DNA from: a virus
Strand: one strand, 5' to 3'
Virus record (IMG/VR): IMGVR_UViG_3300045988_096784
DNA: 64,000 nucleotides
How positions within the stretch are numbered: the stretch's first letter is position 1; each line of letters opens with the position of its first letter. Both the position numbers and the translations under genes were made by a program. Below, piece by piece: positions 9,214-24,122 of the stretch. The notes beneath the pieces were generated by a model, which worked only from the letters and a program-made list of their open reading frames with translations, did not search any database and was not told the DNA's origin.

Positions 9214-9215
9214 AA

Positions 9216-9752: not shown

Positions 9753-9768
9753 ATTTCTCTTCCTTTCT

Positions 9769-9960: not shown

Positions 9961-9963
9961 ATT

Positions 9964-10398
9964 TTACACCTCCTCTACAGAATCAAATTCATGAATTAAG
10001 ATTGCTCCATCGCTGATTTTTTCTGCGCAAACAATGTGTTTAATTTCATATTTATTTTCATTAGGACAATAAACAATGTGTCCACTTTTTAGCAAGGAAA
10101 GAAAGTCACTTTGATAGTAAGTACGACCTCCGAACTCGTTGCAAATTTTAAGGCGAATTTTATATCCTTCATCAACAGAATAGAGATCTCTTACATTATT
10201 ATCTACTTCGCATAACCGCCAAGTTGGGTCTCCATTATTAATGCTGACTCCAAGAACCGGAATAGGACTATAAGTTTCTTGAATAGCGAAAAATTTAGCT
10301 CTTTTGAGTTGGTCTGTATCAGAAAAGCCGAGGAACTCGCAGATTCTTACAGTGGAGTTCTTATATCCTTCTGATTTAATCAGTTCACTAATCTTCAT
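9964..10398 (-). CDS. hypothetical protein (144 aa)
   Basis: ORF with class-A promoter 10421-10460. Confidence 0.5.
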   Translation of the reverse strand: MKISELIKSEGYKNSTVRICEFLGFSDTDQLKRAKFFAIQETYSPIPVLGVSINNGDPTWRLCEVDNNVRDLYSVDEGYKIRLKICNEFGGRTYYQSDFLSLLKSGHIVYCPNENKYEIKHIVCAEKISDGAILIHEFDSVEEV

Positions 10399-10458
10399 AA
10401 CTTTTACTTCCTTTCCTTAACTTTCTATATATATTATATAATAATTTTATAAAAAAAT

Positions 10459-10484
10459 AAAGACGCTCTTTTAAGAGCGTCTTT
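10459..10484 (-). terminator. rho-independent terminator hairpin aaagacgctctt/aagagcgtcttt
   Basis: 12-bp perfect stem followed by a T run in the minus orientation, directly after the stop of 10488-10994. Confidence 0.6.
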
Positions 10485-10487
10485 ATT

Positions 10488-10994
10488 TTACTCAAGGTCG
10501 ATTACATAATTCTCTTGGATAAATGAATCTTCTGGAATATAGATGGTATACTCGGTAGACCAGGGTCCAAGCAAGAAATTCAAAACTGGGTTTTTAAAAC
10601 GGATTTTGTTTTCTTCTATGTATGGGGCATCATCTGTATTCTTAATATAGGACTGATCTGCCTCAATAGATTTGGCGGTTATACCTTTATCTGTTTGATA
10701 CAGGAATGAGTAATAGAGCCCATCTTCTGTATAATAACGGCCTACGTAAGAACTAAAATTATCACTCAAAGCAGTAATAGAATATGTTTGAGTGGTTTTT
10801 GCAGAATAAGTTGCAGGTTCAACAAAAATAACAATACCACAAATTATAATCGCAAATAAGAAAGCGATAAATGCTGAAAGTACAACTCCGAGAATTGTAG
10901 AGAATAGATATTCTGCAAAAGAGTCACAGTCTTTATATAATACTATAAGAGATGTAACCATGAGTAATATAAAGAATCCAATAGCTAATGGCAT
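10488..10994 (-). CDS. membrane protein (two N-terminal hydrophobic helices)
   Basis: ORF; N-terminal 60 aa strongly hydrophobic. Confidence 0.55.
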   Translation of the reverse strand: MPLAIGFFILLMVTSLIVLYKDCDSFAEYLFSTILGVVLSAFIAFLFAIIICGIVIFVEPATYSAKTTQTYSITALSDNFSSYVGRYYTEDGLYYSFLYQTDKGITAKSIEADQSYIKNTDDAPYIEENKIRFKNPVLNFLLGPWSTEYTIYIPEDSFIQENYVIDLE

Positions 10995-11298
10995 AAGTAA
11001 AACCTCTTTTCTTATTTATATAAATATATTACCATATTTTATTAAGATACGCAAGTAAATCTTATGGATTATAACGAACCGTCATAATTTCTCACTGACG
11101 CGGGAATTTTTTAGGCAGAGAAATTGGCAATCCCGCGGTAATTTTAATAAAATGGTCATAGAGGTATTTTTGTCCAAAATTTTCTAATGTATTGATTGTT
11201 CTATTGTTTATAATTTTAGAAAAAAGTTTAACAAATTTTAGGACAAAACCAGAAAATTATGTTATAATAAAAGTAAAGAATAGTAGAGAGGTGATTTT

Positions 11299-11442
11299 AT
11301 GAATTATTCCACTGTTTCTGTTAGATTAACAGAGGAAGAGAAGAAAGATTTGGAAGTCTTTGCTAAGAGTTGTGATTTAACAATGTCTTAGGTAATTAGA
11401 AAGGCTGTTAAAGAATATATTGAGAAAAATAAAATAGACTAA
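11299..11442 (+). CDS. ribbon-helix-helix (CopG/Arc-like) DNA-binding protein, one in-frame TAG
   Basis: MNYSTVSVRLTEEEKKDLEVFAKSCDLTMS-TAG-VIRKAVKEYIEKNKID; GAGGTGA ribosome-binding site; ends TAA. Confidence 0.6.
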
Positions 11443-11457
11443 AGGAGATTAAACTAA

Positions 11458-11679
11458 ATGACTAATGATACTTATAAAGTTTTTACGGTAAAGTTAGCAC
11501 GCAAACTCTGTGATCTTGGTTTTATTATTGTTGGAACTGTTCCTAATGTTTAGAAACCTTGGTTAAATGTTTATCTTTTTGAAGATAGTTAGGATTTAAG
11601 GGATGCAGTTTAGAAGTATAAAGGGATAAGTTCGCTATTGGAGGATGATTGCCATGGCAGACAAAAGAAGAAGTCCTAA
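11458..11679 (+). CDS. hypothetical protein (73 aa) with 3 in-frame TAG
   Basis: AAAGGAG ribosome-binding site, ATG, frame open through 3 TAG to TAA. Confidence 0.45.
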
Positions 11680-13453: not shown

Positions 13454-14110
13454 CCGATCGGGTCTAGATAAAAAGATCGCTTTAACGGAATCCCGCGGAA
13501 AAGATTTTTACTTTTTAAATTGTTAGCAACATCTTTGCTATTGTTTGCTGTATCTTTAATAGTTTTAATTCTGTGAATATCAAGAAATTTTGAGAAAAAC
13601 GAGGCATTTTTTGCTTATTTTTAAGTAAATTTGTTAGAAAAACGCGTATTTTTGCAAGATTTTAGAGGTTTTTCGTTATATTTTGCGATAACAAGAGGTA
13701 AAAGATCGCGGGCCGATCGGTTTATCTAGCTAAAATCTCTATTTTTGAGCTATTTTTATCATAAAATCGTGTTAAACCGATCGGTTCCGCGAAAGAAATC
13801 TCTGGTCGTATTTGTTTTTCATAGCTATATCTTTGCTATTGCTAGTTGTATCTTAGAAAGTTTTGGTACTGTGAATACTTGACAATTTTAAGATTTTTAT
13901 TATAAAAAATTGGACGAGAGAGCCAATATCGCTGGACCGATCGGAACTGGATAAAGGAAGAAGTAAAGTAGGGCCGATCGGTGTTTGGAAGAGGGCGTTA
14001 TGAATTTTGGGAAAATTGCTATGAAGTTGCGTTATGGCCAAGTTGCTATGAAAATTTTGCGCTATGGTCCGATCGGGGAAATTCGGGCCGAGTCGCCCGC
14101 GACCGGCCCG
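13454..14110. repeat. gene-free repeat zone: about 7 copies of palindrome CCGATCGG (one more at 12769), 14-bp repeat ccgatcgggtctag, two about 70-bp direct repeats and tandem 30-bp units
   Basis: CCGATCGG at 13454, 13712, 13776, 13936, 13974, 14069. Direct repeats 13521-13595 and 13826-13897. Tandem ttgctatgaa...gcgctatgg units 14015-14070. Confidence 0.65.
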
Positions 14111-14132
14111 TCGAGTTTAGAAAATATAAAAT

Positions 14133-14160
14133 AAAAAGAGAGGCCGAAGCCTCTCTTTTC
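14133..14160 (-). terminator. rho-independent terminator agagaggc-ttcg-gcctctct
   Basis: GC stem plus T run in minus orientation just after stop of 14161-14412. Confidence 0.55.
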
Positions 14161-14412
14161 TTAATCCTCGTTTTCTAAATTGATTTCTCCTATACAGTTA
14201 CACCGTATCGGAGATTCAAGAACAAATTCATCTCCATATCCAACGATAGTTATTTCTCCATACTTTTTACAATACTCGTCTATCTTTTCGATTATACTAT
14301 TCCAATCTTTCTCTTGCGCTTTTTGTTTTCTAAGTGCCACTTCTTTATAGGCGGTAGCACTCAACCATTGCAACTCCTCGTCATTCAGTTTGTTGAAATC
14401 AATATCAACCAT
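14161..14412 (-). CDS. hypothetical protein (83 aa)
   Basis: ORF. Confidence 0.5.
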   Translation of the reverse strand: MVDIDFNKLNDEELQWLSATAYKEVALRKQKAQEKDWNSIIEKIDEYCKKYGEITIVGYGDEFVLESPIRCNCIGEINLENED

Positions 14413-14429
14413 CTAAAAATCTCCTTTCT

Positions 14430-14918
14430 TTAATGAAAAATCTCAGCCGGAATTTCACTAAAAACTTGCTTAAATTGCTCCATAGTCAGTTCTCTTGCCG
14501 CTCTCTCGACCCTTTCTTTTGCCCAGTCGCAAACCATTTCACAAGAAATAAATTTAATTTCATACCCGGTAATGGCGTAGATTTTAGGCGACCACTCAAA
14601 TCTTTTTGTATCAGCCATATTTCCAGTTAAAATCATATATTCGCCGGTGGCTTGATTTTCTTCTGACTGTTCAACCCAACATTGAACTATATTTTCAACA
14701 TAGTTTTTCCCCGTTTTAACCGCTTCTTTTTCGGTTCGAGCATTGATTAAAAAGGTAGAAAGCATAATATCATCACGAAATGATACCGTAAATTTATAAG
14801 GCTTCTTAGAGAAGATACCCTTGCGACCTTCACACCAAAAGGTAACTTGAAAATTAACACGAAATTGTTTCAGACTTTCCATTTCTTTTATCTCCTTTCC
14901 ATGGTTAAATGATACCAC
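14430..14918 (-). CDS. hypothetical protein (162 aa)
   Basis: ORF; class-B promoter TTGACT-17-TGgTATCAT immediately upstream. Confidence 0.55.
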   Translation of the reverse strand: MVSFNHGKEIKEMESLKQFRVNFQVTFWCEGRKGIFSKKPYKFTVSFRDDIMLSTFLINARTEKEAVKTGKNYVENIVQCWVEQSEENQATGEYMILTGNMADTKRFEWSPKIYAITGYEIKFISCEMVCDWAKERVERAARELTMEQFKQVFSEIPAEIFH

Positions 14919-14946
14919 ATTTTTGGGAGAAAGTCAAGCTGTCAAG

Positions 14947-14977
14947 TTGCACAAATTTTCAATTCAAAATTGTTGAA
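14947..14977. promoter_or_regulatory. inverted-repeat site TTGCACAA-N15-TTGTTGAA upstream of -35
   Basis: Member of the TTGCACAA/TTGTGCAA family. Others at 16696-16773 (4 half-sites), 18168-18199, 19053-19084, 20705-20736, 22147-22178, 23838-23878. Confidence 0.55.
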
Positions 14978-14998
14978 AATGACAATAGAAGAAAAAAT

Positions 14999-15025
14999 CG
15001 GACCGCGGCGCACGCAAGCGGTCCG
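14999..15025. other. GC-rich hairpin cggaccgc-GGCGCACGCaa-gcggtccg (REP-like family)
   Basis: Related hairpins with GGCGCACGC-type loops at 22200-22226 and 19105-19134; further GC hairpins at 16795-16830, 18223-18250, 20760-20790. Confidence 0.5.
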
Positions 15026-15041
15026 CCCAAAATTTTGCGTA

Positions 15042-15071
15042 AAAAAATCTCCCCCATAAGGGGAGATTTTT
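15042..15071 (-). terminator. rho-independent terminator aaatctcccc-ataa-ggggagattt plus T run
   Basis: Directly after stop of 15074-15424. Confidence 0.6.
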
Positions 15072-15073
15072 CT

Positions 15074-15424
15074 TTAATTGAGAATTATCGGGTATGCCTT
15101 GCGAATAACCACCGTAACCATGGCCGGGGGAGTGTCGCACAAGAAACGGTCATTTCTGATAAAACGACCAATTCCCATACTCTGCCACAAAGTTCGGTTT
15201 ACATCCTCGTATCGTAGGGTATTATACTTGGAAAGTTTGATATGCCAATCATAGATAAAGGAACCATCTTCCGGCATGGTATAATCTAGCGCCCGCTTAT
15301 AATTTCTCGTATGTTCTGCGGCTCTGCGCTCAAGGTCATTTGTCGTACCAATCTTGAGAATATAGCGCCCCTTTTTGTCGATATAATGTCCGACATATAG
15401 GAACTCTTTTCCCCTTGTCTGCAA
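15074..15424 (-). CDS. GIY-YIG domain protein (free-standing nuclease-like)
   Basis: EFLYVGHYIDKKGRYILKIGTTNDLERRAAEHTRNY matches GIY-x10-YIG...R...E arrangement. Confidence 0.55.
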   Translation of the reverse strand: MQTRGKEFLYVGHYIDKKGRYILKIGTTNDLERRAAEHTRNYKRALDYTMPEDGSFIYDWHIKLSKYNTLRYEDVNRTLWQSMGIGRFIRNDRFLCDTPPAMVTVVIRKAYPIILN

Positions 15425-15480
15425 ACTAACTATAACTTGCCTCTTTTCTGGTAGGGCCGGGGTAGGCCGACCCTACCCCG

Positions 15481-15798
15481 TTATTTCTTCGGCTTACGCT
15501 TTTGCACAAGCGTCAACTCGAAACTATCCCCACCAATAGAAAACGCAATCTGTCTTTCCTTATTAGTAATAGACAAATCAGCGATAGAGAATTGACTGTT
15601 TTTTTCCAAAAACTCTGCCAATTCCGCGATTATACCGCCTTTCGTGGCGTTTGGCTTGCGTTGCCGTGTAGTGAACTTATATGCGGTTGGCTGTTTGCGC
15701 GTTCCAGCATGGGCAAACTTTTGAGCGATTTTCGCCTTTTCTGGCGGTAAATCGTATTCAGTCTTTTTATCAGCCTCTACCGCTTTATCATAGGCCAA
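15481..15798 (-). CDS. hypothetical basic protein (105 aa)
   Basis: ORF. Confidence 0.5.
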   Translation of the reverse strand: MAYDKAVEADKKTEYDLPPEKAKIAQKFAHAGTRKQPTAYKFTTRQRKPNATKGGIIAELAEFLEKNSQFSIADLSITNKERQIAFSIGGDSFELTLVQKRKPKK

Positions 15799-15936
15799 TA
15801 AATCTGCCTCCTCTTCCGGCGTTAATTGTAGGGCTTTATACCTTGCAATCCGTTCAGCGTCACTAATACGACTGGATATAATATCACCCCCATATTATAA
15901 GTTAGGGCGGGGATTTTCACCCCGCCCTATACGGGG

Positions 15937-16347
15937 TTACGCCATCTTAAAAAGGGACTTGCCCTTCTTTTCCGTGCAGACCACTCGACCATCGAGTTTC
16001 AACTGCCGCACAAGGGCGGCGACCTTCTGGTTAGAATAGGCCGTCAGATCAGGAATAGCCTTAAAAATTTCCGTGCAAGTCACGCCATCGGTATCGGCAT
16101 CCAGATCAGCCAGATACTCCATAATCTGCTCCTTAAAATTCTCGTTCTCCTGTTGGGTGGGAGTCAGCTTCTTGTCACCGCTAGAGCTATTCTTCTTACG
16201 CAGAAGCTCCAGCTCATGGTCAATGACAGTAATAGCCACCTCGATGGTAGTGCCATACTTTACCTCGCCGTCAGTCAAGAGGGTCTTAATGTCTTCAAAA
16301 CGCTGGGCCTTAGTAATGCGGATTTTCTTCTCGTCCATAATATACAT
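15937..16347 (-). CDS. hypothetical protein (136 aa)
   Basis: ORF; promoter TTGACA-17-TGgTACAAT in minus orientation at about 16395-16425. Confidence 0.55.
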   Translation of the reverse strand: MYIMDEKKIRITKAQRFEDIKTLLTDGEVKYGTTIEVAITVIDHELELLRKKNSSSGDKKLTPTQQENENFKEQIMEYLADLDADTDGVTCTEIFKAIPDLTAYSNQKVAALVRQLKLDGRVVCTEKKGKSLFKMA

Positions 16348-16439
16348 CCTTTCTGGTTTTTAGGACTGTCCTTGTCCTTTGATTATATTGTACCACACTA
16401 TTTGGTACTTGTCAAGAGGTTTTTCAAACTTTTTTCAAG

Positions 16440-16640
16440 AACTTTTGCCCTTTACTTGTTTGCCCTCTCAACCTCCCTTATAGTGTAACACACTTTGGAA
16501 AGTTTGTCAAGCCCTTTTTATTTAATTTTCAAGGTACATTGCCTTGTTTTCTGTACTTATTATAGCACATCTTCAAAGGCTTGTCAAGAGGTTTTTAAAA
16601 GATTTTTGAGAAATTCGCTGTCACTGTCTGCCGTTCGTCT
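16440..16640 (-). promoter_or_regulatory. two additional tandem consensus promoters without a downstream ORF
   Basis: Minus orientation: TTGACAagcctttgaagatgtgcTATAAT and TTGACAaactttccaaagtgtgtTACACT; no coding frame of any size before the next promoter. Confidence 0.45.
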
Positions 16641-16837
16641 CTCTCACTTTCTGAATGTATTTTACCACAAGCAAAAGCAGATTGCAAGCGTCAAATTGCA
16701 CAAAAAATCGGAATTTTGGGAGAGAGTTTTTGTGCAAAATTCTGCACAAAAACGGGACGAAATTTTTGTGCAACATTACCATTGAAAAATTCGGCCCGCG
16801 TCAGCCATCCGCGGGCCGTCGACCTTTTAGATATAAA

Positions 16838-16862
16838 AAAAAATAAGAGGGCTGTAAAGCCC
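16838..16862 (-). terminator. rho-independent terminator aagagggc-tttaca-gccctctt plus T9
   Basis: Perfect stem followed by 9 T in minus orientation after stop of 16865-17050. Confidence 0.65.
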
Positions 16863-16864
16863 TC

Positions 16865-17050
16865 TTAAATATCAATCATATAACTATAAACCATATCCCA
16901 AAGCGGCATATCATTCAGAAGGATATTTACAGTCAAAAGTCCGGTTTCTGTCGGCCCATCAACAAACCATCCCAGCCGCTGCATAAGGTGAATAACCTCA
17001 TAGACATAATCGGGGTCAAGATGGTTAGTGGTAAACTGTCTTGAAAACAT
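16865..17050 (-). CDS. hypothetical protein (61 aa)
   Basis: ORF with AAAGGAAAAG ribosome-binding site. Confidence 0.45.
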   Translation of the reverse strand: MFSRQFTTNHLDPDYVYEVIHLMQRLGWFVDGPTETGLLTVNILLNDMPLWDMVYSYMIDI

Positions 17051-17077
17051 TTCTTTTCCTTTCTATCGGGCGGGGCT

Positions 17078-17902
17078 TTAAGCCCCTACCCGAATTGTCG
17101 GATTATTTTTCAAACTTGCGGAAAGTTGACGCTGAAAATCTGTCATAGGCGGAAACTCTCTTTTATTCTCATACAGGGCCTTTCTCATGGGCTTATGCTG
17201 ACGCATACAATACCACATGATTTCCGCCTCAATCAGAACATCCTCAAGCCCCGTATGACTTTCTTCAAAATCGGTATTGCCAGAGATAAACCGCCACACG
17301 ATTTCCGCAGTCTTGCGGGGGACACCATTAGCCTGGACATATCCGTTTTCCTGACAGAATTTCTTATAAGTGGGCATATTGCAGATAACATCCTGTGTCA
17401 TCTTCATAATATCCCAAATCTCCACGCTGTCAAACGGGAACCAATAACGCCACTTGGAGTAGGTCACATAACGCTGTGTAACTCTCAAGGCATTATCGTC
17501 AAATCTGGCATTATAAGCCGCAACTTCCTTAATGCCGTATCGCTCAATGGTATTGAGCATAGCTTGGCGGATTTCATAAGTGGTAGCCATTTTACGAGTG
17601 CCGGCCCGCAGTTCCTCAATATAGCGGGGAATTTTCCAATTATAATAAGCAGTCCGCATGAGATCCCGCTCGTCATTGAAAATGTCCCGATTTACAAAAC
17701 TTGCAGTTTCGTAAATATTGCCCTTGGTATCTACCACGGCCCAGCCGCAGTCATATACCAATACATTTGACATATCCATACGGACACGCTCGGGGGTGAT
17801 AATCTCCCCATCTTCCCCGATTTCAGCGGGAACGGTTTCGGTTAAAGTGTTGGCGGTTTCAGTGTCAACCACCAGCACATAATGTCTACGCTTATCAATC
17901 AT
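17078..17902 (-). CDS. DnaQ-like 3'-5' exonuclease (DEDDh family)
   Basis: Exo I motif VLVVDTETAN and Exo III motif HTGLEDVLIEAE; perfect promoter TTGACA-17-TGcTATAAT in minus orientation at 17945-17975. Confidence 0.65.
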   Translation of the reverse strand: MIDKRRHYVLVVDTETANTLTETVPAEIGEDGEIITPERVRMDMSNVLVYDCGWAVVDTKGNIYETASFVNRDIFNDERDLMRTAYYNWKIPRYIEELRAGTRKMATTYEIRQAMLNTIERYGIKEVAAYNARFDDNALRVTQRYVTYSKWRYWFPFDSVEIWDIMKMTQDVICNMPTYKKFCQENGYVQANGVPRKTAEIVWRFISGNTDFEESHTGLEDVLIEAEIMWYCMRQHKPMRKALYENKREFPPMTDFQRQLSASLKNNPTIRVGA

Positions 17903-18290
17903 AATCTATCAAGTCCTTTCTTCTCTTCATGGTATTATTATAGCACAATTAAGGCTTGGTGTCAAGAGGAAAAGGAAATTTCGTTGCGATTTATTGCAAG
18001 CTACTGGACGATGGAACGGCCTATTCCAAAGGCGCTCACTCGACTTACGACACAATATAAATTTACTTCCTTTACTTTCTAAGAGTTCGCGACCTCTTGA
18101 TTTCTTGGCCTTCCCCTCTTGACAAATATATAATACCATACTTTCGGGATAATTACAAGATGGCAAATTGCACAAAATTTGCAAGCCAAAATTGTGCAAC
18201 ATCGACAAAAACAAAAACTCGGCTAGCCGCGTGCGCCAGCGAGCCGCCCAAACGATATTAAAGAGTAAAAATAAGAGGGCCGAAGCTCTC

Positions 18291-18479
18291 TTAATATCCA
18301 AGATATTCTTTATTGATAATCTCGTCAAGCCAATAGCTCAAATCTTCAAGCGAAATATCGTCATCAATTTCATGGTCGGCCATAACCTGATCAATTTGAC
18401 CAATGAGAATGAACGCATTTTTCAATACTTGTCGCTCTTCCTCGCTGAGGATAAGCCTATTAACCTTTCTAATCTTCAT
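18291..18479 (-). CDS. hypothetical protein (62 aa)
   Basis: ORF followed by terminator aagagggccgaagctctctt 18275-18294. Confidence 0.45.
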   Translation of the reverse strand: MKIRKVNRLILSEEERQVLKNAFILIGQIDQVMADHEIDDDISLEDLSYWLDEIINKEYLGY

Positions 18480-18519
18480 TTACAAAACTTCCTTTCTTAT
18501 TTTAAGATTGACTGGTGGA

Positions 18520-18984
18520 TTACTCTACCAGTCGCCATAAGGCCGTAGGTAAATCTTCATGTGGCTCGATTGTTTCCCCTAAATGCCAACCATCCCGCAC
18601 ACTTTTATTATCGTCAATCAAAATAAAATTGCTAACCCCCGGCTCGAAGTATTTTCGCACACAGTTTGCTTTTGTTGTGCCATATTCCACAAGGTGGACT
18701 TTATGTGCGGGGAAGTTGTATTTTGCAAGCCAAGTGCGCTTTGCGTCACGGACAGCGGTTTTATATGAGTTAGAACTGTCTTTTGCAAGCCAACTGATAA
18801 CCCGAATTTCCCAGCCCTGTTCAATAAGTTTATTGAGAACGGTATTCAATTCTTCCATATCGCAAAGAGGTTTAGCGACTGTATATGGATAGGGGTTTTC
18901 ATTCATTAAATCTTTCAGCCATCCATCTACGCCGTACAGGTCAGCGATTGTTCCATCCATATCAAAGCAGAGCATCTTTTTCAT
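18520..18984 (-). CDS. HAD-superfamily hydrolase (5'-nucleotidase-like)
   Basis: N-terminal motif I LCFDMDGTIAD; length and C-terminal D-rich motif consistent with HAD phosphatases. Confidence 0.6.
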   Translation of the reverse strand: MKKMLCFDMDGTIADLYGVDGWLKDLMNENPYPYTVAKPLCDMEELNTVLNKLIEQGWEIRVISWLAKDSSNSYKTAVRDAKRTWLAKYNFPAHKVHLVEYGTTKANCVRKYFEPGVSNFILIDDNKSVRDGWHLGETIEPHEDLPTALWRLVE

Positions 18985-19183
18985 TTTGATTTACTTCCTT
19001 TCTTTAGGTTGATTAAAGTATATCAGATTTCGGGATAGAAAACAAGAGGCAAAATACACAAAATTTCGGTTGGAAAATTGTGCAACTTCTACAAAAGAGA
19101 AAATTCGGCGCGCCACGCACGTTAGCGCGCCGCCGAGAAACCTATTCAAAAAATGGGATAAAAAAGAGGGCTTCGGCCCTCTT

Positions 19184-19645
19184 TTAACTTTCACATATAT
19201 TTGCAAGAAATCTTGCAGAAAGTTTAACCATGTCATGGACAGATTCTTCGTTATTGCTATTTTTATAGCAAATAAAACCAACCTGGTCGCCATTCACAAG
19301 AATTGGTGTAATAAACATACTTTCCCATTTTGTCGCCGAACTGCGAATATCAATCCAGTCATCGGGAACCCTTGTAATTCCAAATGAACGCGGCCCGCAT
19401 AAAATTCCATCATTGTCAAAAATAGCCGCGGCGATTCTGTTAGATGAAAGGGCATTTTGCATTTGTTTAGCGTAAGAGGAAAATTCTCCCATTATAGAAT
19501 ATTTCTTAAAAACTACGCCGCCATCTTCTTCAAGAAAAATCTCTAATGGGTCGCCTTCTCTAATATGAAGGTTTCTACGGATTTCCTTTGGAATTACTAT
19601 CCGGCCCAAATCATCAATACGGCGCACAATTCCAGTAGCTTTCAT
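19184..19645 (-). CDS. AbrB/SpoVT-family transcriptional regulator (swapped-hairpin domain plus C-terminal domain)
   Basis: N terminus MKATGIVRRIDDLGRIVIPKEIRRNLHIREGDPLEIF is the AbrB/MazE/SpoVT barrel signature. Confidence 0.65.
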   Translation of the reverse strand: MKATGIVRRIDDLGRIVIPKEIRRNLHIREGDPLEIFLEEDGGVVFKKYSIMGEFSSYAKQMQNALSSNRIAAAIFDNDGILCGPRSFGITRVPDDWIDIRSSATKWESMFITPILVNGDQVGFICYKNSNNEESVHDMVKLSARFLANICES

Positions 19646-19697
19646 TTTTATCTGCGGGAGTGCAAGATTTATAGTCTTGCACTCCCTTCCTCCCTTC

Positions 19698-20090
19698 TTA
19701 ATCCAGTTCTTTCAACATCCGTTCGAGGTCAGCTTTAGTACCACCCAACTCAAGCGTAAGAATAATTTCCGTTACGGCATTTTTCTCCCAGTCGCTAACT
19801 TCCCGCATGGCCTTTTTCTTCTCGTTCTCCATAGCGGGGTAAATACAATCCTGGCAAGCCTCTACCAGCCGGTCATTATATCTGCGGAAACTCATCCCCT
19901 TGTTTTTAACCTCCGAAAGAAGTTCGTCGTTAAGGGCTTTTACCGCCTGCTTAACTTTCTCCTGCATGATTTTACACTCTGTCTCATAAGCGGAAAAGGT
20001 TTCATGGACAGCCTGCCTCTTGATTTCAGCCTTTACTCCAACTTCCTTTTCAATATACTCCCGAACAACCTTACTAACACGCATTTCCAA
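19698..20090 (-). CDS. hypothetical protein (130 aa)
   Basis: ORF; promoter TTGACA-17-TACAAT in minus orientation at about 20150-20185. Confidence 0.5.
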   Translation of the reverse strand: MEMRVSKVVREYIEKEVGVKAEIKRQAVHETFSAYETECKIMQEKVKQAVKALNDELLSEVKNKGMSFRRYNDRLVEACQDCIYPAMENEKKKAMREVSDWEKNAVTEIILTLELGGTKADLERMLKELD

Positions 20091-20179
20091 AACTTCCTTT
20101 CTTAATTTTAATTTTTATTTATCGGGGTCGCCCCTTCCATGGTCTTATTGTACCATAGTTGGGGCGATTTGTCAACCCC

Positions 20180-20332
20180 TTACATCAAAGTTTTTGCAAG
20201 ATACGCAAACATTAAAATCTCCGCCGCAAACATGATTTCAAGTCCTATGCAATCTCTTTCAATAGCGGCTACAAATTGCCATACCAGACATAGAACAAAA
20301 GCAATCAGAATTATCATGGTAAAAGTTGTCAT
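20180..20332 (-). CDS. small hydrophobic membrane protein (about 50 aa)
   Basis: Internal ATG with GGGGTGA ribosome-binding site; MTTFTMIILIAFVLCLVWQFVAAI. Confidence 0.4.
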   Translation of the reverse strand: MTTFTMIILIAFVLCLVWQFVAAIERDCIGLEIMFAAEILMFAYLAKTLM

Positions 20333-20336
20333 ATAC

Positions 20337-20594
20337 TCACCCCGCAAAGGAAACTTCCGCAAAGTTGATATTGAAACGCTCCCATTCACTTTCCATACCT
20401 AACATCATATCATGGAAAAGGTCATCACGATTTTCATATCCATCTTCTTCCAGAATAGCCTCCCATTCTCCATCGTCATATTGATTTTCCAGATAATCCA
20501 AAGCAGACTTGCGGGCGGCGATGGTATTAGACGCTACGCAGATAGGTTTATCGTCGTATCCGTCCGTGACCAAAATCATTTTCTTTTCTTCCAT
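20337..20594 (-). CDS. hypothetical acidic protein (about 85 aa)
   Basis: ORF trimmed to internal ATG with AAAGGAAAG ribosome-binding site. Confidence 0.45.
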   Translation of the reverse strand: MEEKKMILVTDGYDDKPICVASNTIAARKSALDYLENQYDDGEWEAILEEDGYENRDDLFHDMMLGMESEWERFNINFAEVSFAG

Positions 20595-20806
20595 GATTTT
20601 TTCTTTCCTTTCTTTCGAGGTGTTTCTGTCTCCCTCTTTCTGATAATAATATACCACAGGCAAAGCAGAAAGTCAAGCGATTTTAGGAAAAAATCTTTCG
20701 TCAGATTGCACAACAATTCGAGCCTAAAATTGTGCAAATTGCCTCTTGATAAAAAATTCCGGCCGCGCCTGTGGTGCACGGCCGGGCGAACGAATAAAAA
20801 AAAAGA

Positions 20807-20831
20807 ACCTCCTGAATTTCAGGAGGTCATT
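20807..20831 (-). terminator. rho-independent terminator aacctcctgaa-att-tcaggaggtt plus T9
   Basis: Stem followed by 9 T in minus orientation after stop of 20870-21103. Confidence 0.6.
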
Positions 20832-20869
20832 AATTTCTGCATACCAACAACTTCCTTTCTTTTGAGAAG

Positions 20870-21103
20870 TCAATCGGCATCTTCAACAATCTTTAATCCG
20901 TTTGCTTGGATAATTTTCATAGCTTCTTCAAGCGAGGAATCAACCGATCCGCAGTCGATACAGATATATTTTCTGCCATCTTTTACCATAGTAGTAAAAT
21001 AGTATTCTTGGCCAGAAACAAGGCCCATCTACTCTCGCAGTCTTACTGGAATCATGATACGCCCACTTGAATCTAATTTCCTTGAGAAAGTAGTTTCTTG
21101 CAT
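20870..21103 (-). CDS. second AbrB/MazE-type small DNA-binding protein (77 aa), one in-frame TAG
   Basis: MQETTFSRKLDSSGRIMIPVRLRE-TAG-MGLVSGQEYYF matches the swapped-hairpin motif; start without clear SD. Confidence 0.5.
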
Positions 21104-21509
21104 TTTGATAAATAAATTCTAGTGACCTAGGCTCGTGCGAAAAACGACTCCATCACGGGAATCGCCGATTTAGAACAATCGGAAGGAACATTTACCACTC
21201 GCAAGGCATTTTCTGGCAGAACTGAGACATAGGATAATTCTTGCAAGAATCCTAGTTCAAACAGAACTCCAAAATAACCGCAAGCGCTTTCAGCACTTCT
21301 AAGGTCATTAGAAAAACTCCTTTCTTTATTTTTCTATAATTATTATAATATATTTTTTTGAAAAAATCAATAGGGCCGGCATTACGCCAGCCCTAATCTC
21401 TGCAACCAAACCAGATGGTATTTACCAATGTGAAGTAGAACTGTGCCATATCCCTTATCCGTCCAGACAGTGGAGCCGATAGGATATGTGTGCGGTAAAC
21501 GCTCAATAC

Positions 21510-21725
21510 TCACTTTAGTTCCACCTCCTCGAAAGCTCCAATTTTTAGCAGATAATTATATAAGGCTCTATCTTGCTTGTCACCGGTATTAAAATCAAGT
21601 GTACGAACACAGCCGGTAACATTGGAATTGAGAGGATGACCCAAACACCAGCCAACCATATTACAAATTGTGTTTCCAAACTCCACAGACTTTTCTGCAC
21701 TTTCAAATTTAATAACAGCAATCAT
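21510..21725 (-). CDS. hypothetical protein (71 aa)
   Basis: ORF. Confidence 0.45.
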   Translation of the reverse strand: MIAVIKFESAEKSVEFGNTICNMVGWCLGHPLNSNVTGCVRTLDFNTGDKQDRALYNYLLKIGAFEEVELK

Positions 21726-21787
21726 ATTTATTCCTCCTTTTTATCGTGGGGAGTAGAGGTTTGTGGCCTCCACTCCCGCAAGTTTTC

Positions 21788-22027
21788 TTAATCATCTACA
21801 TAAATGATTAAATTGTTATCTCTTGCCTCAATGCCGGTTACCTGAAGTCCTAGAACCCATTCCTTAGATACCTCGATTACGTCTCCTCCCAGAGTTATTC
21901 TACCATCAGGTAATTCATGGTAATGAGCTTGGGTATTCTTATTGATAATTTCAAATCCCTCCCCGTCAAAGAACATAGTATCTTCTGCAAGCGGAGAAAG
22001 TAACCAAGCAACCATATCTAAAGTCAT
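21788..22027 (-). CDS. hypothetical protein (79 aa)
   Basis: ORF; promoter TTGACA-17-TGtTATTAT in minus orientation 22040-22075. Confidence 0.5.
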   Translation of the reverse strand: MTLDMVAWLLSPLAEDTMFFDGEGFEIINKNTQAHYHELPDGRITLGGDVIEVSKEWVLGLQVTGIEARDNNLIIYVDD

Positions 22028-22294
22028 TTTTTTTACTTCCTTTCAAATTCTTTTTGTGGCCTGTCCCTTTGGACAAGTATATAATAACACATGGCAAAAG
22101 GAATGTCAAGTAATTTCGGGAGAAAAACTTTCGTCGAATTGCACAGACTTTCGGTCATATAATTGTTGAAATTGCCGAATAAATAAAAATTCGGGCCGCG
22201 GCGCACGCTGGCGGCCCGGCGAAAAGTCAATATGGAAAAGTGCATAAAAATGACTGGCAATCTTTGTGTAGATTGCCAGTCAAGTATTATTCCT

Positions 22295-22528
22295 TTACAG
22301 CTCCATGGTTTCCATGAGATAGCCCGTGCCCATCGGCACCTCCCGCAGATTGCTGGGACTTATACGCAACTTATATTTCCTATTGATTTTATTCGCCGCA
22401 CTTGTCTTATCTCTTGCTTGGACAATTACTGGTATATGGAGTTTATTCAGAGTGGGCTTATTAAGACTGAAATATCCCATCTCTCTGCGCTTGCGGCCCA
22501 TGGCGTCGATATAAGTCCCTCTATACAT
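22295..22528 (-). CDS. hypothetical basic protein (77 aa)
   Basis: ORF followed by 12-bp hairpin terminator 22230-22262. Confidence 0.5.
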   Translation of the reverse strand: MYRGTYIDAMGRKRREMGYFSLNKPTLNKLHIPVIVQARDKTSAANKINRKYKLRISPSNLREVPMGTGYLMETMEL

Positions 22529-22684
22529 TTTTTTCCTCCTATTATTTAGTCATGAGAACGAACATATTATATTCGCTGTGCTGTGGGTTTGGCTCACAGT
22601 TATCCGCCACTATATCAGCCCAACTAAGAACTGCCCAGAGTAGGAGAGCGGCACAAATGCCGCCTCCTATCCGCTTAATAATTC

Positions 22685-22987
22685 TCATTTCCATTTCTTT
22701 GCCTCCTGTTCTTTAACCCATTCAGTACCGATTGTATCTCCGACCATAGCAACCTTATATTCGTCTTCGCTTGCAATTCTGGTATGCAGATTGCTATTGA
22801 TAAACTTTCTATTGATATAAGCCCAGTGTGGCATATAGGCCACTCGCATGGCATTAAAAGCATCCAGGTCTAAGATAATGCCGTCCTCTACCTCTGCGGA
22901 ACGCACATTCATCTTATACCGCAAAAGTTTAATAAATTCACGCTTTCTAAAAGTAGGCCCAACGAACCACTTAATATAATTGTTCAT
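22685..22987 (-). CDS. hypothetical protein (100 aa)
   Basis: ORF. Confidence 0.5.
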   Translation of the reverse strand: MNNYIKWFVGPTFRKREFIKLLRYKMNVRSAEVEDGIILDLDAFNAMRVAYMPHWAYINRKFINSNLHTRIASEDEYKVAMVGDTIGTEWVKEQEAKKWK

Positions 22988-23254
22988 AGTCTTTTATCCT
23001 TTCTCCCCGTATAGCCGTTAGGTCAGCTTCTTTTTAATCTACGATTTCTCCACTGGATAAATCCACAATCCAATGATTAGGATTGACTATCTCGTGACTG
23101 ACCTTCCATCTTGCCATTGAAAGGGTGGATGGTTCATAATAGCGCATTTTCTCATTGGCTAAAACTTGTAACTGATACATATAGTATGCCCCTTTCTTTT
23201 AATTATTATAACCCTGCCTTGCCTTGTGTTTTGCAAGGCAGGGTTTATAAACTG

Positions 23255-23629
23255 TTATCCTCTAATTTCTTCTTCTTGGGTCTTTGTCGCCCAATCAAAA
23301 GAGGTACGAACATCGGAAGGTCTGCGGAATTGCTCTGCTTCGGCTTTCGTTCCACCTAATGCCATAGCATAGGCTTTCCAGTCAACCGTTCCTTTTGCGG
23401 TAGTTTCTTTATATACCACCGCTTTCGCCTTACCCTGTATTTGTACCGTGCCATATAGATAACTTGTTTTGTCCGTAGCCTTAAAAGCCTTACCTAATCT
23501 GGAGAATAGCTCTTTAGCCTTAGCCTTAGCTGCTTTCTCCGCCGCCTCCGCCGCAGACTTAGCCATCTTAGCCGCCATATACTCCATAATAATGGCTCGA
23601 TCTTCATTGGTAAAATCAATCTTTTTCAT
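23255..23629 (-). CDS. hypothetical Ala/Lys-rich protein (about 124 aa)
   Basis: ORF trimmed to ATG with AAAGGGAG ribosome-binding site. Confidence 0.5.
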   Translation of the reverse strand: MKKIDFTNEDRAIIMEYMAAKMAKSAAEAAEKAAKAKAKELFSRLGKAFKATDKTSYLYGTVQIQGKAKAVVYKETTAKGTVDWKAYAMALGGTKAEAEQFRRPSDVRTSFDWATKTQEEEIRG

Positions 23630-24122
23630 ACTCTTTTGACTCCCTTTCTTTTTGTGGTGTGGTTCTCTTTTGTTCTGTCTGTATTGTATCAAACCTTTAG
23701 CAGTTTGTCAATACCTTTTTTGAAATTTTTTAATTTTCAAAGTGCCGTGCTTTTGTCTCTGTCCTACTGGACAAGTCCAGTTTACCACCAAAACACTCAC
23801 TTGTCAATAGTTTTTTTGAAATTTCTTTCTCTCTCTCTTGCACAAAATAAATAACATCTTGTTGTGCAGTTTGCACAAACCCTTTACGCGCGTATTCCTT
23901 TAGGGGCGTGCTTTCTTGCTTTCGTACTTTAACGAGTGAAAGAGGCCAACTACACTTCAATACTTTACCATGTGAAAGAGGGGCGCGTATTTTGGGAAAA
24001 ACTGGAAATTTTTTTGTAAAATCGTTCTGCCACGCCATTTCAAAATCTAAATCGACTTTTCAATCTCAATAACGAAAAAGAGAGAAGAACTCACTTCTTC
24101 TCTCCGCATTTACAATATAATC

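What the first reader, a model, noticed from the sequence alone, without database searches (positions are those of the whole stretch)
14920..23900. Repeated intergenic module: terminator, GC hairpin, TTGCACAA-N16-TTGTGCAA inverted repeat, then consensus promoter
At seven intergenic sites (14947, 16696, 18168, 19053, 20705, 22147, 23838) an 8-bp half-site TTGCACAA and its complement TTGTGCAA are separated by 15-17 nt. In the direction of transcription each sits just upstream of a near-perfect TTGACA-17-TG-n-TA(T/C)AAT promoter, with the repeat centred around -55 to -65. Most sites are preceded by a T-run terminator and an extra GC-rich hairpin whose loop recurs as GGCGCACGC. Half-site spacing over two helical turns and placement upstream of -35 suggest an activator or antiterminator site. 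The two AbrB/SpoVT-type proteins in the same block are candidate binders.
Basis: seen in the sequence. Interest (0 to 1): 0.75.

Follow-up and report, generated by a model that had tools for sequence, protein, structure and literature searches.

The report
Phased operator repeat at early promoters
Seven early transcription units of a stop-codon-recoded gut phage each begin with the same terminator, GC hairpin, inverted repeat and promoter; the repeat keeps helix-phased distances from strong promoters in well over a hundred sites from related phage contigs, so it is most likely the binding site of a still unidentified regulator of early genes.

Summary
The repeat is real. Seven 32-bp inverted repeats (TTGCACAA-N16-TTGTGCAA; 2 exact, 5 with 1-3 mismatches; 0.36 expected by chance) lie in intergenic DNA at 14.9-23.9 kb. 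Each heads a minus-strand early transcription unit of a TAG-recoded, Phass-like Clostridia phage.

In transcription direction the order is:
- a terminator;
- a 27-nt GC hairpin plus U-run (6 of 7 modules, supported by covariation);
- 18-21 nt of spacer;
- the repeat;
- a sigma-A-type extended -10 promoter, with its TG 28-29 or 49-50 nt from the repeat (repeat centre about -60 or -80).

Among 238 distinct sites in other viral contigs, 149 show the same quantised distances (27-30, 38-40, 49-51 nt). The two arms mutate independently. In 23 sites the repeat lies between divergent promoters. It therefore acts as DNA, not RNA.

Best reading: an operator for an unidentified symmetric protein that contacts RNA polymerase from one helix face and co-regulates the early units. 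The modules are also recombination joints for gene cassettes.

The AbrB/SpoVT binders are unproven: Phass-1 has the repeat but no such protein. A winged-helix family is an equal candidate.

Novelty: a new variant of known phage operator and PeSL-type cassettes.

The parts
14947..14978 (.). Inverted repeat, module 1. Promoter-proximal arm exact; distal arm reads TTCAACAA on the gene strand.
14909..14937 (-). Promoter TTGACT-17-TGgTATCAT. TG lies 29 nt from the repeat (centre about -60.5). Drives 14430-14882 and 14161-14412.
14999..15025 (-). 27-nt GC hairpin followed by ATTTTTT, 20 nt from the repeat.
15043..15071 (-). Bidirectional intrinsic terminator ending the upstream unit (15074-16347 genes).
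16742..16773 (.). Inverted repeat, module 2 (N16, 1 mismatch).
16696..16737 (.). Second pair of exact half-sites spaced N26 (16 + 10). The proximal arm is 28 nt from the TG.
16659..16687 (-). Promoter TTGCAA-17-TGgTAAAAT. Three further tandem promoters without a repeat follow (16559-16587, 16482-16510, 16387-16415) before gene 15937-16347.
16792..16818 (-). 27-nt GC hairpin followed by AATTTTT, 18 nt from the repeat.
16844..16867 (-). Intrinsic terminator of the unit 17902-16865.
18168..18199 (.). Inverted repeat, module 3 (exact).
18130..18158 (-). Promoter TTGTAA-17-TGgTATTAT, TG 29 nt from the repeat (about -60.5). A second promoter without a repeat lies at 17937-17965, before gene 17078-17902.
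18220..18246 (-). 27-nt GC hairpin followed by AGTTTTT, 20 nt from the repeat. Its loop motif is inverted relative to the others, and its fold is the weakest of the six (z = 0.09 for the 96-nt stretch).
18272..18293 (-). Intrinsic terminator of the unit 18984-18291.
19054..19085 (.). Inverted repeat, module 4 (2 mismatches, both in the promoter-proximal arm).
19017..19045 (-). Promoter TTGTTT-17-TGaTATACT, TG 28 nt from the repeat (about -59.5). Drives 18520-18984 (HAD-like) and 18291-18479.
19106..19132 (-). 27-nt GC hairpin followed by AATTTTC, 20 nt from the repeat.
19162..19185 (-). Intrinsic terminator after the SpoVT-like gene 19184-19645.
20706..20737 (.). Inverted repeat, module 5 (exact).
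20648..20676 (-). Promoter TTGACT-17-TGgTATATT, TG 49 nt from the repeat (about -80.5).
20759..20785 (-). 27-nt GC hairpin followed by AATTTTTT, 21 nt from the repeat.
20806..20827 (-). Intrinsic terminator after the AbrB-like gene 20870-21103.
22139..22170 (.). Inverted repeat, module 6 (3 mismatches; distal arm reads TTCAACAA as in module 1).
22081..22109 (-). Promoter TTGACA-17-TGtTATTAT, TG 49 nt from the repeat (about -80.5).
22192..22218 (-). 27-nt GC hairpin followed by AATTTTT, 21 nt from the repeat.
22251..22282 (-). Intrinsic terminator (13-bp stem) ending the unit 23632-22295.
23838..23878 (.). Inverted repeat, module 7 (23838-23869, 1 mismatch), plus a third exact half-site at 23871-23878. 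No GC hairpin upstream.
23779..23807 (-). Promoter TTGACA-17-TGgTAAACT, TG 50 nt from the repeat (about -81.5). A second promoter without a repeat lies at 23683-23711.
24079..24105 (-). Terminator-like hairpin ending the preceding block, upstream of module 7.
15937..16338 (-). Candidate binder 1: 133-aa protein with a predicted C-terminal winged helix. A paralogue lies at 6086-6526.
19184..19645 (-). Candidate binder 2: SpoVT-like protein (AbrB-type N domain plus SpoVT_C). It sits in a cassette that is missing from the corresponding 16-kb region of close relatives.
20870..21103 (-). Candidate binder 3: 77-aa AbrB-like protein with one in-frame TAG.

Best explanation
Context. The window comes from a TAG-recoded (code 15) Phass-like phage of gut Clostridia. 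Its standard-code early genes lie on the minus strand.

The module. Between 14.1 and 24.1 kb, seven early transcription units each start with one composite boundary module. In the direction of transcription it contains:
- the intrinsic terminator of the previous unit;
- a 27-nt GC-rich hairpin with a U-run, which acts as a second, back-up terminator;
- 18-21 nt of spacer;
- a 32-bp inverted repeat, TTGCACAA-N16-TTGTGCAA;
- a strong host sigma-A-type extended -10 promoter.

Shown by the analysis:
- the anatomy of the module;
- selection for the hairpin structure;
- quantised repeat-to-promoter distances;
- independent variation of the two repeat arms;
- the wide distribution of the repeat;
- cassette breakpoints that fall at the modules.

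Inferred:
- The repeat is double-stranded DNA bound by a symmetric protein, a dimer or a dimer of dimers. Each 8-mer is itself nearly palindromic, and the arm centres are 24 bp apart.
- From a fixed helix face at about -60, -70 or -80, that protein contacts RNA polymerase (probably the alpha C-terminal domain) at the first promoter of every unit. The whole early set would then be switched together.
- The promoters are already close to consensus. I therefore favour shut-off of early transcription, as phi29 p4 does at the strong A2c promoter, over activation. The sign is not established.
- The binder is unknown. Phage candidates are the winged-helix family and the AbrB-type proteins. A host protein is not excluded.
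- Because the module is repeated, it also serves, at least passively, as the homologous-recombination joint at which gene cassettes are gained, lost and reordered.
For: Enrichment and location:
- Seven N16 sites against 0.36 expected, all intergenic.
- Each site sits at the first promoter after a terminator. The seven other strong promoters in the block, which are tandem or internal, have no repeat.

Phasing:
- In the window the TG of the extended -10 lies 28, 29, 29, 49, 49 and 50 nt from the repeat. The N26 pair keeps 28 nt.
- Among 238 distinct sites (up to 2 mismatches) from contigs that were not selected for a promoter, 149 have TGnTAnnnT at 27-30, 38-40 or 49-51 nt on at least one side.
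- The histogram peaks are 28:71, 29:39, 39:25, 38:9, 49:9. Every other distance has 6 or fewer, except one family at 45.

DNA, not RNA:
- Arm changes are one-sided. At position 3 there are 42 + 37 single changes against 1 complementary double change; at position 4, 33 + 38 against 1.
- In 23 sites the repeat lies between divergent promoters.

Distribution:
- Sites cluster in the early end of the complete Phass-1 genome: 9 of 11 half-sites lie in the last 9.3 of 136 kb.
- Of 36 loci chosen only by homology to an early protein, 33 carry the repeat.
- Hits in bacterial genome records are almost all Clostridia MAG contigs. Several are 130-160 kb long, phage-genome size.

GC hairpin:
- 95.7% of cells are paired. 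32 cells have changes on both sides against 7.7 +/- 2.2 in shuffles (0 of 500), and 5 or fewer in slid controls.
- A U-run follows in all six window copies.
- The hairpin starts 17-20 nt from the repeat in 69 of 93 cases on promoter-less sides.

Cassette joints:
- L162, L173 and L023 (94-96% identical) lack window 19088-20707, with the crossover inside the repeat arm.
- L167 and L168 lack 14110-14994.
- L036 has two genes in swapped order.

Precedent:
- phi29 p4 binds CTTTTT-N15-AAAATG sites with A-tracts between divergent promoters, and both represses and activates (PMC3100819).
Against: - No binding protein is identified, and no experiment was possible.
- Neither candidate family is clearly universal. 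Phass-1 has no AbrB-type protein and only a weak, divergent winged-helix relative (hhalign probability 56%) whose putative recognition helix differs.
- Constant spacing could partly reflect common descent of duplicated modules.
- 89 of the 238 sites show no phased extended -10. Some of these are chance matches, and some promoters may fail my strict pattern.
- One high-GC family places the repeat 45 nt from the TG on one side, out of phase.
- Consensus promoters do not obviously need an upstream factor.
- The inner part of the repeat is asymmetric (TCCCGAAAT next to the proximal arm). A purely symmetric binder does not explain this.
- Transcription start sites are inferred as 7 nt after the -10. 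They are not mapped.
Confidence: 0.6

Rival explanations
1. Passive mobile regulatory cassette. The terminator-hairpin-repeat-promoter unit is a PeSL-like block that spreads and is homogenised by recombination. The repeat is conserved only as part of that block, and no dedicated binding protein exists.
For: - Cassette gain, loss and reordering have breakpoints at the modules.
- The module is repeated within one genome.
- Cultured Enterococcus relatives have the same layout of one promoter and one terminator per small gene without any repeat, so the layout works without it.
Against: - Sequences between the repeat and the -35, and inside the repeat, differ widely between copies and between phages, while the two 8-mers and the quantised distances persist.
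- The same arms and spacer recur in an unrelated high-GC element family.
- Steps of 10-11 bp are not expected from descent alone.
Confidence: 0.15
2. Insulator by roadblock. The main job of the protein bound at the repeat is to stop polymerases that read through the upstream terminator. It would hold them on the U-run of the GC hairpin, which sits one polymerase footprint (18-21 nt) upstream. Any effect on the promoter is secondary.
For: - The hairpin-to-repeat distance is fixed in the window (18-21 nt) and in 69 of 93 cases elsewhere (17-20 nt).
- The hairpin-to-first-terminator distance varies (17-32 nt).
- The repeat occurs only at unit boundaries, not at internal promoters.
Against: - This does not explain the helix-phased distance to the downstream promoter.
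- Module 7 has a repeat but no hairpin.
- In many relatives a promoter lies between repeat and hairpin, and no U-run follows the hairpin in the gene direction.
Confidence: 0.12
3. Intrinsic upstream promoter element. The A/T tracts and the 8-mers are read directly by RNA polymerase alpha subunits, or shape DNA curvature, with no separate factor.
For: - In the -60 class the repeat spans about -75 to -44, overlapping the usual UP-element zone.
- A/T runs flank both arms.
Against: - The best-conserved positions are in G/C-containing 8-mers with dyad symmetry, not A/T tracts.
- In the -70 class a separate A/T-rich stretch lies between the repeat and the -35. In the -80 class the repeat is beyond normal alpha reach.
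- Enterococcus relatives with equally strong promoters lack it.
Confidence: 0.08
4. RNA-level element: the repeat is a hairpin in read-through transcripts that acts in antitermination, processing or stability.
For: - It can form an 8-bp stem.
- It lies just downstream of terminators.
Against: - There is no compensatory change in the arms, in contrast with the neighbouring GC hairpin.
- It lies after two terminators and before the promoter, and between divergent promoters in 23 sites.
- No Rfam family matches.
Confidence: 0.03

Closest known systems
phi29 protein p4 binding sites in the A2c/A2b-A3 switch region
   Same: - Imperfect inverted repeat with short specific ends about 25 bp apart and A/T tracts in between (CTTTTT-N15-AAAATG; PMC3100819).
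- Lies upstream of, and between, divergent sigma-A promoters of a Firmicute phage.
- The bound dimer acts through RNA polymerase, repressing strong early promoters while activating another.
   Different: - Different sequence, with the opposite polarity of the A/T tracts.
- Seven or more copies, one per early unit, instead of one switch region.
- No p4-like protein was detectable.
- Binding and sign are untested here.
PeSL (promoter-early stem-loop) cassettes of T4-type phages
   Same: - Small intergenic cassettes that combine a strong sigma-70-like early promoter with a terminator stem-loop.
- They flank small non-essential genes and mediate modular shuffling by recombination between copies (PMC2839356, PMC4122927).
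- The same signs are seen here.
   Different: - PeSLs have no separate operator-like inverted repeat at a phased distance and no second GC hairpin.
- The hosts and phage lineages are unrelated.
- Mini-circles were not tested.
SPbeta repeated element (SPBRE), bound by the master repressor MrpR
   Same: A short conserved motif repeated in the promoter regions of many phage operons. It was predicted in silico long before its binder was found, and is now known as a repressor site (PMC10516654).
   Different: - SPBRE is a 15-bp motif in a temperate phage, bound by a recombinase-fold protein.
- Here the site is a 32-bp dyad with strict helical phasing, in a phage with no evidence of lysogeny.
- An MrpR homologue was not searched for.
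Class I activator sites (E. coli CRP at -61.5, -71.5, -82.5) and P2 Ogr sites (TGT-N12-ACA near -55); from my own knowledge
   Same: A dyad site upstream of the -35 whose allowed positions differ by one helical turn, which implies contact with the polymerase alpha subunit.
   Different: - Those promoters are weak without the factor; these are close to consensus.
- The half-site sequence and spacing differ (arm centres 24 bp apart here, against about 11 for CRP).
Multi-copy operators of temperate actinophages (phiC31 conserved inverted repeats; L5 stoperators); from my own knowledge
   Same: Many copies of one operator spread over the intergenic regions of the early genes.
   Different: Stoperators are asymmetric, depend on orientation and block elongation. 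Neither system shows promoter phasing or a coupled hairpin.

Membership tests
PeSL-type regulatory cassette | Composite of a strong sigma-70-like early promoter and a terminator stem-loop in intergenic DNA between small genes | tested here: met
   Promoter and terminator scans and folds
PeSL-type regulatory cassette | Insertions, deletions and replacements between close relatives have their ends at the cassettes | tested here: met
   L162, L173 and L023 lack 19088-20707, with the joint in the repeat. L167 and L168 lack 14110-14994.
PeSL-type regulatory cassette | Membership of the T4-type PeSL sequence family, in T4-like myoviruses | not tested
   No comparison with PeSL consensus sequences was made. 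The phage is a Phass-like phage of Clostridia, so only an analogy is claimed.
PeSL-type regulatory cassette | Formation of encapsidated mini-circles by recombination between neighbouring cassettes | not testable with these tools
   Needs PCR or read-level data from virions
phi29 p4-type switch site | Inverted repeat CTTTTT-N15-AAAATG with three A-tracts | tested here: not met
   The arms are TTGCACAA / TTGTGCAA with N16. Only the general architecture is shared.
phi29 p4-type switch site | A p4-family protein is encoded by the phage | tested here: inconclusive
   Pfam and PHROG scans of 20 early proteins gave no regulator hit other than AbrB-type. The p4 fold cannot be excluded by sequence.
Class I (alpha-CTD-contacting) upstream regulator site | Allowed positions upstream of the -35 differ by integral helical turns | tested here: met
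   Repeat centre at about -60, -70 and -80. Distance peaks at 28/29, 38/39 and 49/50 nt.
Class I (alpha-CTD-contacting) upstream regulator site | Protein binding, and dependence on the polymerase alpha C-terminal domain | not testable with these tools
   Needs EMSA and in vitro transcription
Intrinsic (factor-independent) terminator | G+C-rich stem-loop directly followed by a U-run on the transcribed strand | tested here: met
   Holds for both hairpins of six modules. The GC-hairpin stem is supported by covariation. Exception: the 18168 copy folds no better than shuffled sequence (z = 0.09).
AbrB/SpoVT family (the two proposed binders) | AbrB-type swapped-hairpin N-terminal domain above the Pfam threshold | tested here: met
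   19184-19645: MazE_antitoxin 45.1 bits (cut-off 24.7), plus SpoVT_C 22.7 bits (below its 27.5 cut-off). 20870-21103: only 19-21 bits (below cut-off), but PHROG 4681 E = 1.7e-7.
AbrB/SpoVT family (the two proposed binders) | Present wherever the repeat is present | tested here: not met
   The complete Phass-1 genome has the repeat but no AbrB-type ORF. AbrB-type genes occur in 19 of 90 repeat-bearing loci.
Known RNA families (Rfam 15) | Match at or near the gathering score for the repeat or the GC hairpin | tested here: not met
   Only weak chance-level hits and tRNAs

The most novel reading that the evidence does not exclude
The repeat and the GC hairpin form one coupled 'transcription-unit boundary' device that is widespread in phages of gut Clostridia.

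A single bound protein would do two jobs at once:
- It roadblocks read-through polymerases exactly on the U-run of a hairpin placed one polymerase footprint (18-21 nt) upstream.
- It contacts the polymerase at the next promoter from a phased position.

Each early cassette would then be insulated and co-switched as a unit.

In relatives, the same hairpin is instead transcribed from a second, repeat-phased promoter as an ORF-less RNA of roughly 60-100 nt. That RNA would be a further, undescribed component.

In this phage the switch could be timed by the recoding itself, through the AbrB-like gene that always keeps one in-frame TAG.
Probability: 0.2. Interest if true: 0.75.

Novelty: new variant of a known kind. 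Interest (0 to 1): 0.6.

Why it matters
Regulation in Phass-like and other large phages of gut Clostridia is undescribed. The only paper on Phass-1 mentions no promoters, terminators or repeats.

This motif supplies several things:
- a concrete, testable cis-element that marks the immediate-early transcription units of well over a hundred uncultured phage contigs, including stop-codon-recoded ones;
- a short list of candidate binders;
- a possible link between early shut-off and the recoding switch;
- an explanation of how early 'ORFan' cassettes are shuffled in this group;
- a sequence tag for finding early regions, and for host assignment to Clostridia, in viromes.

Tried and rejected
- Literature search for the two 8-mers returned only primers and unrelated hits.
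- Rfam gave nothing for the repeat or the hairpin.
- RNA-hairpin reading of the repeat: rejected, because the arms do not co-vary.
- A plus-strand promoter between repeat and hairpin in the window: none found on inspection, although relatives have one.
- Megablast against 50,697 phage records gave one 58-nt hit, a promoter region of Phass-1.
- The genome scan for the repeat plus a -35 gave 37 hits. Almost all are Clostridia MAG contigs, several of phage-genome size.
- The only isolate hits are one orthologous Coprococcus chromosomal locus in two species. It has no recognisable -10, and the whole intergenic region is about 90% identical, so it says little about a host regulon.
- Protein co-occurrence in 90 repeat-bearing loci gave these counts: HAD 29, exonuclease-like 29, winged-helix 27, 105-aa basic protein 20, AbrB 19. 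None singles out a binder.
- Pfam and PHROG scans of 20 early proteins: mostly ORFans.
- The winged-helix model (pLDDT 86.8) matches PerR, MepR, ArsR and TubR only at E >= 6.5e-3. This supports a DNA-binding fold but says nothing about specificity.
- The PDB sequence search was uninformative.
- The high-GC family with the same repeat shares only an RHH-like gene with a few other loci and none of the Phass-type early proteins.
- Matches to CodY, Spo0A, Rex, CRP/FNR, Noc and other known boxes were considered from memory and do not fit the 8-mers.

Full report
**What the window is**

- The window has 35% G+C.
- Genes from about 1 to 27 kb lie on the minus strand in the standard code. All 22 likely early genes end in TAA or TGA, never TAG.
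- On the plus strand from 27 to 64 kb, long reading frames appear only if TAG is read through. Codons in frames of 150 or more rise from 2,049 to 11,482, and the longest frame reaches 2,913 codons.
- The only megablast hit in 50,697 phage records is a 58-nt promoter stretch of Phage Phass-1. That phage is a 136-kb 'Caudoviricetes code 15 clade' genome from human gut.
- The authors of the Phass-1 paper propose Eubacteriales (Clostridia) hosts. They do not mention promoters, terminators or repeats (PMC10607447).
- The finding therefore lies in the early region of a stop-codon-recoded phage of gut Clostridia.

**Checking the observation**

The repeat:
- Exact TTGCACAA-N16-TTGTGCAA occurs twice, with 0.00 expected.
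- With up to three mismatches there are exactly seven N16 sites in the 64 kb, at 14947, 16742, 18168, 19054, 20706, 22139 and 23838. Markov simulations give 0.36 on average and 2 at most.
- Of 13 exact half-sites (2.1 expected), 12 lie in 14.9-23.9 kb.
- All seven sites are intergenic.
The N16 repeat of that module is 16742-16773. Three other coordinates were off by 1-8 nt.

The module, read on the coding (minus) strand:
- a conventional terminator;
- a GC-rich hairpin of exactly 27 nt followed by (A/G)(A/G)TTTTT;
- 18-21 nt of spacer;
- the repeat;
- a promoter with a 17-nt spacer and TGn extended -10.

- Six modules have the hairpin; module 7 does not.
- GGCGCACGC occurs in three hairpins, once inverted.
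- The hexamers match consensus at 9-11 of 12 positions.
- Taking the start site as 7 nt after the -10, the repeat centre is at -60.5, -60.5 and -59.5 (14947, 18168, 19054). It is at -80.5, -80.5 and -81.5 (20706, 22139, 23838).
- In module 2 the proximal half-site keeps the standard 28 nt to the TG, but its partner is 26 rather than 16 nt away, one extra turn.

**The repeat marks unit boundaries**

- The block has 14 strong minus-strand promoters.
- The seven with a repeat are the first promoter after a terminator.
- The other seven have none. They are tandem ones at 16587, 16510, 16415, 17965 and 23711, and internal ones at 20175 and 14792.

**Evidence from other sequences**

- Many of these are relatives of the window at 65-95% identity. 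Others show no detectable DNA similarity.
- I excluded loci that I had selected for a promoter. That leaves 238 distinct sites with up to two mismatches.
- Of these, 149 have TGnTAnnnT at 27-30, 38-40 or 49-51 nt from the repeat on at least one side, and 23 on both sides.
- The counts are 28:71, 29:39, 27:10, 39:25, 38:9, 49:9 and 50:5. Every other distance has 6 or fewer, apart from one high-GC family at 45 nt (earlier view).
- Steps of 10-11 bp, while the intervening sequence is free to vary, are what a requirement for one helix face predicts.
- N16 is the preferred spacer. There are at least 136 distinct exact sites, a truncated count, against 79 for N15 and 44 for N17. Part of the N15 and N17 sites are also phased.
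- Of 36 loci retrieved only by homology to an early protein, 33 carry the repeat and 31 carry a phased one.
- In the complete Phass-1 genome, 9 of 11 half-sites lie in the last 9.3 kb.
- A scan of one genome per prokaryotic species for the repeat plus a -35 found 37 loci. Nearly all are Clostridia MAG contigs (Acutalibacteraceae, Oscillospiraceae, Lachnospiraceae, Ruminococcus, Coprococcus), several of 130-160 kb, which is phage-genome size.
- Cultured Enterococcus phages H1, EF1 and VRE9 share early genes and the layout of one promoter and one terminator per gene, but have no repeat.

**DNA or RNA**

- The arms of the repeat vary on one side at a time. At position 3 there are 42 left-only and 37 right-only changes against one complementary double change. 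At position 4 the counts are 33 and 38 against one.
- In the window the repeat lies after two terminators and before the promoter.
- In many relatives, Phass-1 included, it lies between divergent promoters. One is at about -60 and drives genes. The other is at about -70.
- It therefore works as double-stranded DNA.
- The GC hairpin behaves the opposite way. In 23 copies from the window and relatives, 95.7% of cells pair and six of nine pairs show compensatory changes.
- 32 cells are changed on both sides, against 7.7 +/- 2.2 in shuffles (0 of 500) and 5 or fewer when the partner is slid. The hairpin is selected as a structure.

**The GC hairpin**

- In the window it carries a U-run in the gene direction and follows the first terminator. 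It therefore reads as a back-up terminator.
- Five of the six two-hairpin stretches fold better than shuffled sequence (z from -2.7 to -6.3). The 18168 stretch does not (z = 0.09).
- Its distance to the repeat is fixed at 18-21 nt in the window. Across other contigs it starts 17-20 nt away in 69 of 93 promoter-less sides. Its distance to the first terminator varies from 17 to 32 nt.
- Where relatives have the second, -70-class promoter, the hairpin starts 50-58 nt from the repeat. That places it at about the transcription start.
- The transcript there is typically GGAAUUUUCGG, a long GC hairpin, an A-rich linker and the bidirectional terminator of the convergent gene. It is roughly 60-100 nt long with no reading frame.
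- For that promoter class, the first 50 nt have a median G+C of 0.54 and a fold energy of -16.6 kcal/mol. Gene-side promoters give 0.40 and -5.9. A ribosome site plus reading frame follows in 14 of 37 cases, against 83 of 117.
- The window lacks these promoters (inspection).
- I cannot say what the short RNAs do.
- The fixed spacing suggests that a protein on the repeat could hold read-through polymerases on the U-run. This is inference only.

**Cassette shuffling**

- L162, L173 and L023 are 94-96% identical to the window. They lack 19088-20707, which holds the SpoVT-like gene and two others.
- The crossover lies inside the right arm of the repeat, joining the left flank of module 4 to the right flank of module 5.
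- L164 keeps the segment at 97% identity.
- L167 and L168 lack 14110-14994, bounded by module 1 and a terminator.
- L036 has the HAD and exonuclease-like genes in swapped order.
- This is the behaviour described for PeSL cassettes of T4-type phages (PMC2839356, PMC4122927).

**Who binds?**

AbrB-type proteins:
- 19184-19645 is SpoVT-like, and 20870-21103 is a weak AbrB-type match.
- Phass-1 has the repeat but no AbrB-type reading frame by tblastn or a family HMM.
- Close relatives lack the SpoVT-like cassette in the corresponding region.
- Only 19 of 90 repeat-bearing loci hold an AbrB-type gene.

Winged-helix family:
- This 133-aa family (15937-16338; paralogue at 6086-6526) occurs in 27 of the 90 loci.
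- It has no Pfam or PHROG match.
- Its model has pLDDT 86.8 and a C-terminal winged helix. That domain resembles PerR, MepR, ArsR, TubR and Z-alpha, but only at E >= 6.5e-3.
- Phass-1 has only a weak relative (hhalign probability 56%) with a different putative recognition helix.

Host protein:
- A host protein remains possible.
- The only isolate-genome hit is one conserved Coprococcus chromosomal locus, which is uninformative.

I leave the binder open.

**Mechanism proposed**

Shown:
- the module anatomy;
- the enrichment;
- the intergenic and boundary position;
- the quantised distance to promoters;
- DNA-type variation of the arms;
- structural selection on the hairpin;
- recombination at the modules.

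Inferred:
- A symmetric protein occupies the two near-palindromic 8-mers, whose centres are 24 bp apart with A/T tracts inside.
- From one face of the helix it contacts RNA polymerase at the first promoter of each unit.
- The promoters are near consensus. The closest precedent for an upstream, polymerase-contacting site at strong phage early promoters is phi29 p4, which represses A2c and activates A3 from sites of similar architecture (PMC3100819). I therefore lean to coordinated early shut-off, with low confidence in the sign.

**Comparison with known systems, and novelty**

- Repeated operators in phage early regions are known (SPBRE/MrpR, PMC10516654; phiC31 and L5 from memory). So are promoter-terminator cassettes (PeSL).
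- What I did not find described is this motif, its strict phasing upstream of consensus promoters, its coupling to a hairpin at fixed distance, and its spread through uncultured Clostridia phages.
- I rate it a new variant of a known kind, of moderate to good interest.

Noticed in passing
window 20870-21103 (-); orthologues in L162, L164, L166-168, L173, L022, L036: The small AbrB-like gene in the otherwise standard-code early block has one in-frame TAG. Orthologues 61-95% identical always keep exactly one TAG at a Gln position, but at different codons: 25 in the window, L166-168 and L036; 32 in L162, L164 and L173; 40 in L022. This looks like selection for suppressor-tRNA-gated translation of a regulator.
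   Followed up: partly
window 27000-64000 (+): The late region is TAG-recoded. Codons in frames of 150 or more rise from 2,049 to 11,482 when TAG is read through, and the longest frame reaches 2,913 codons. The 22 early genes end only in TAA or TGA.
   Followed up: yes
relatives, e.g. L082 381 and 1935, L100 5074 and 8602, L093, L117 4228/6974/8739, L038 363; Phass-1 L001 9144, 11347, 13350: A second consensus promoter sits on the far side of the repeat (repeat centre about -70). It drives an ORF-less RNA of roughly 60-100 nt: GGAAUUUUCGG, a long GC hairpin, an A-rich linker and a bidirectional terminator. In some loci a co-directional -10 sits directly before the hairpin instead (L013 616 and 5370, L027 949). 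Function unknown. These promoters are absent from the window.
   Followed up: partly
window 16387-16687, 17937-18158, 23683-23807 (-): Tandem consensus promoters lie 75-195 nt apart with no reading frame between them: four before gene 15937-16347, two before 17078-17902 and two before 23255-23629. They could give leader RNAs or small RNAs.
   Followed up: no
window about 18105-18125 and 22060-22075 (-); many relatives: Transcripts of repeat-associated promoters often begin with a Shine-Dalgarno-like stretch (GTCAAGAGGGGAA, TCCAAAGGGACAGG) well upstream of the real ribosome site. This resembles the 5' mRNA stabilisers of Bacillus (and inspection).
   Followed up: no
window 14920-14928, 18140-18147, 19028-19036 (-), and inside several repeats: TCCCGAAA(T) recurs in the spacer between -35 and -10 of several promoters, and next to the promoter-proximal arm inside the repeat. 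This gives the repeat an internal polarity.
   Followed up: no
window 15481-15798 and 15937-16347 (-); L139, L100, L105, L135, L090: The winged-helix gene and a basic protein of 105-130 aa tend to occur in the same loci, often in two or three copies of each per locus.
   Followed up: partly
L010, L015, L024, L028-30, L033, L049, L053, L070, L080, L081, L095, L112, L120: An unrelated family of elements with 51-61% G+C has the same arms and N16 spacer between a ribbon-helix-helix-like gene and a divergent gene. Three copies of GCACGGTACAGG lie inside and beside the repeat. The repeat is 45 nt from one TG, out of phase, and about -60 from the other.
   Followed up: partly
L155 3383-3428 and L124 6379-6424 (Coprococcus catus, C. 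intestinihominis chromosomes): One orthologous host locus carries an exact repeat plus TTGACA but no recognisable -10, upstream of a gene for a secreted protein. Differences between the two species are denser in the repeat's spacer (5 of 16 positions) than in the immediately flanking DNA. It could be chance, or a hint of a host regulon.
   Followed up: partly
window 194-2125 (-): A cluster of eight tRNA genes (Glu, Ala, Asp, Leu x3, Asn, Ile) contains no CTA suppressor. Phass-1 has three tRNA-Sup-CTA genes elsewhere in its genome.
   Followed up: no
L158 (Enterococcus phage H1, 91.5-99.8 kb of the record): This cultured relative has a consensus extended -10 promoter before almost every small early gene. 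In several, short G/C runs flanking the -35 (e.g. aaggggTTGACAaacccctt) can pair into a hairpin that encloses the -35. There is no TTGCACAA repeat.
   Followed up: partly
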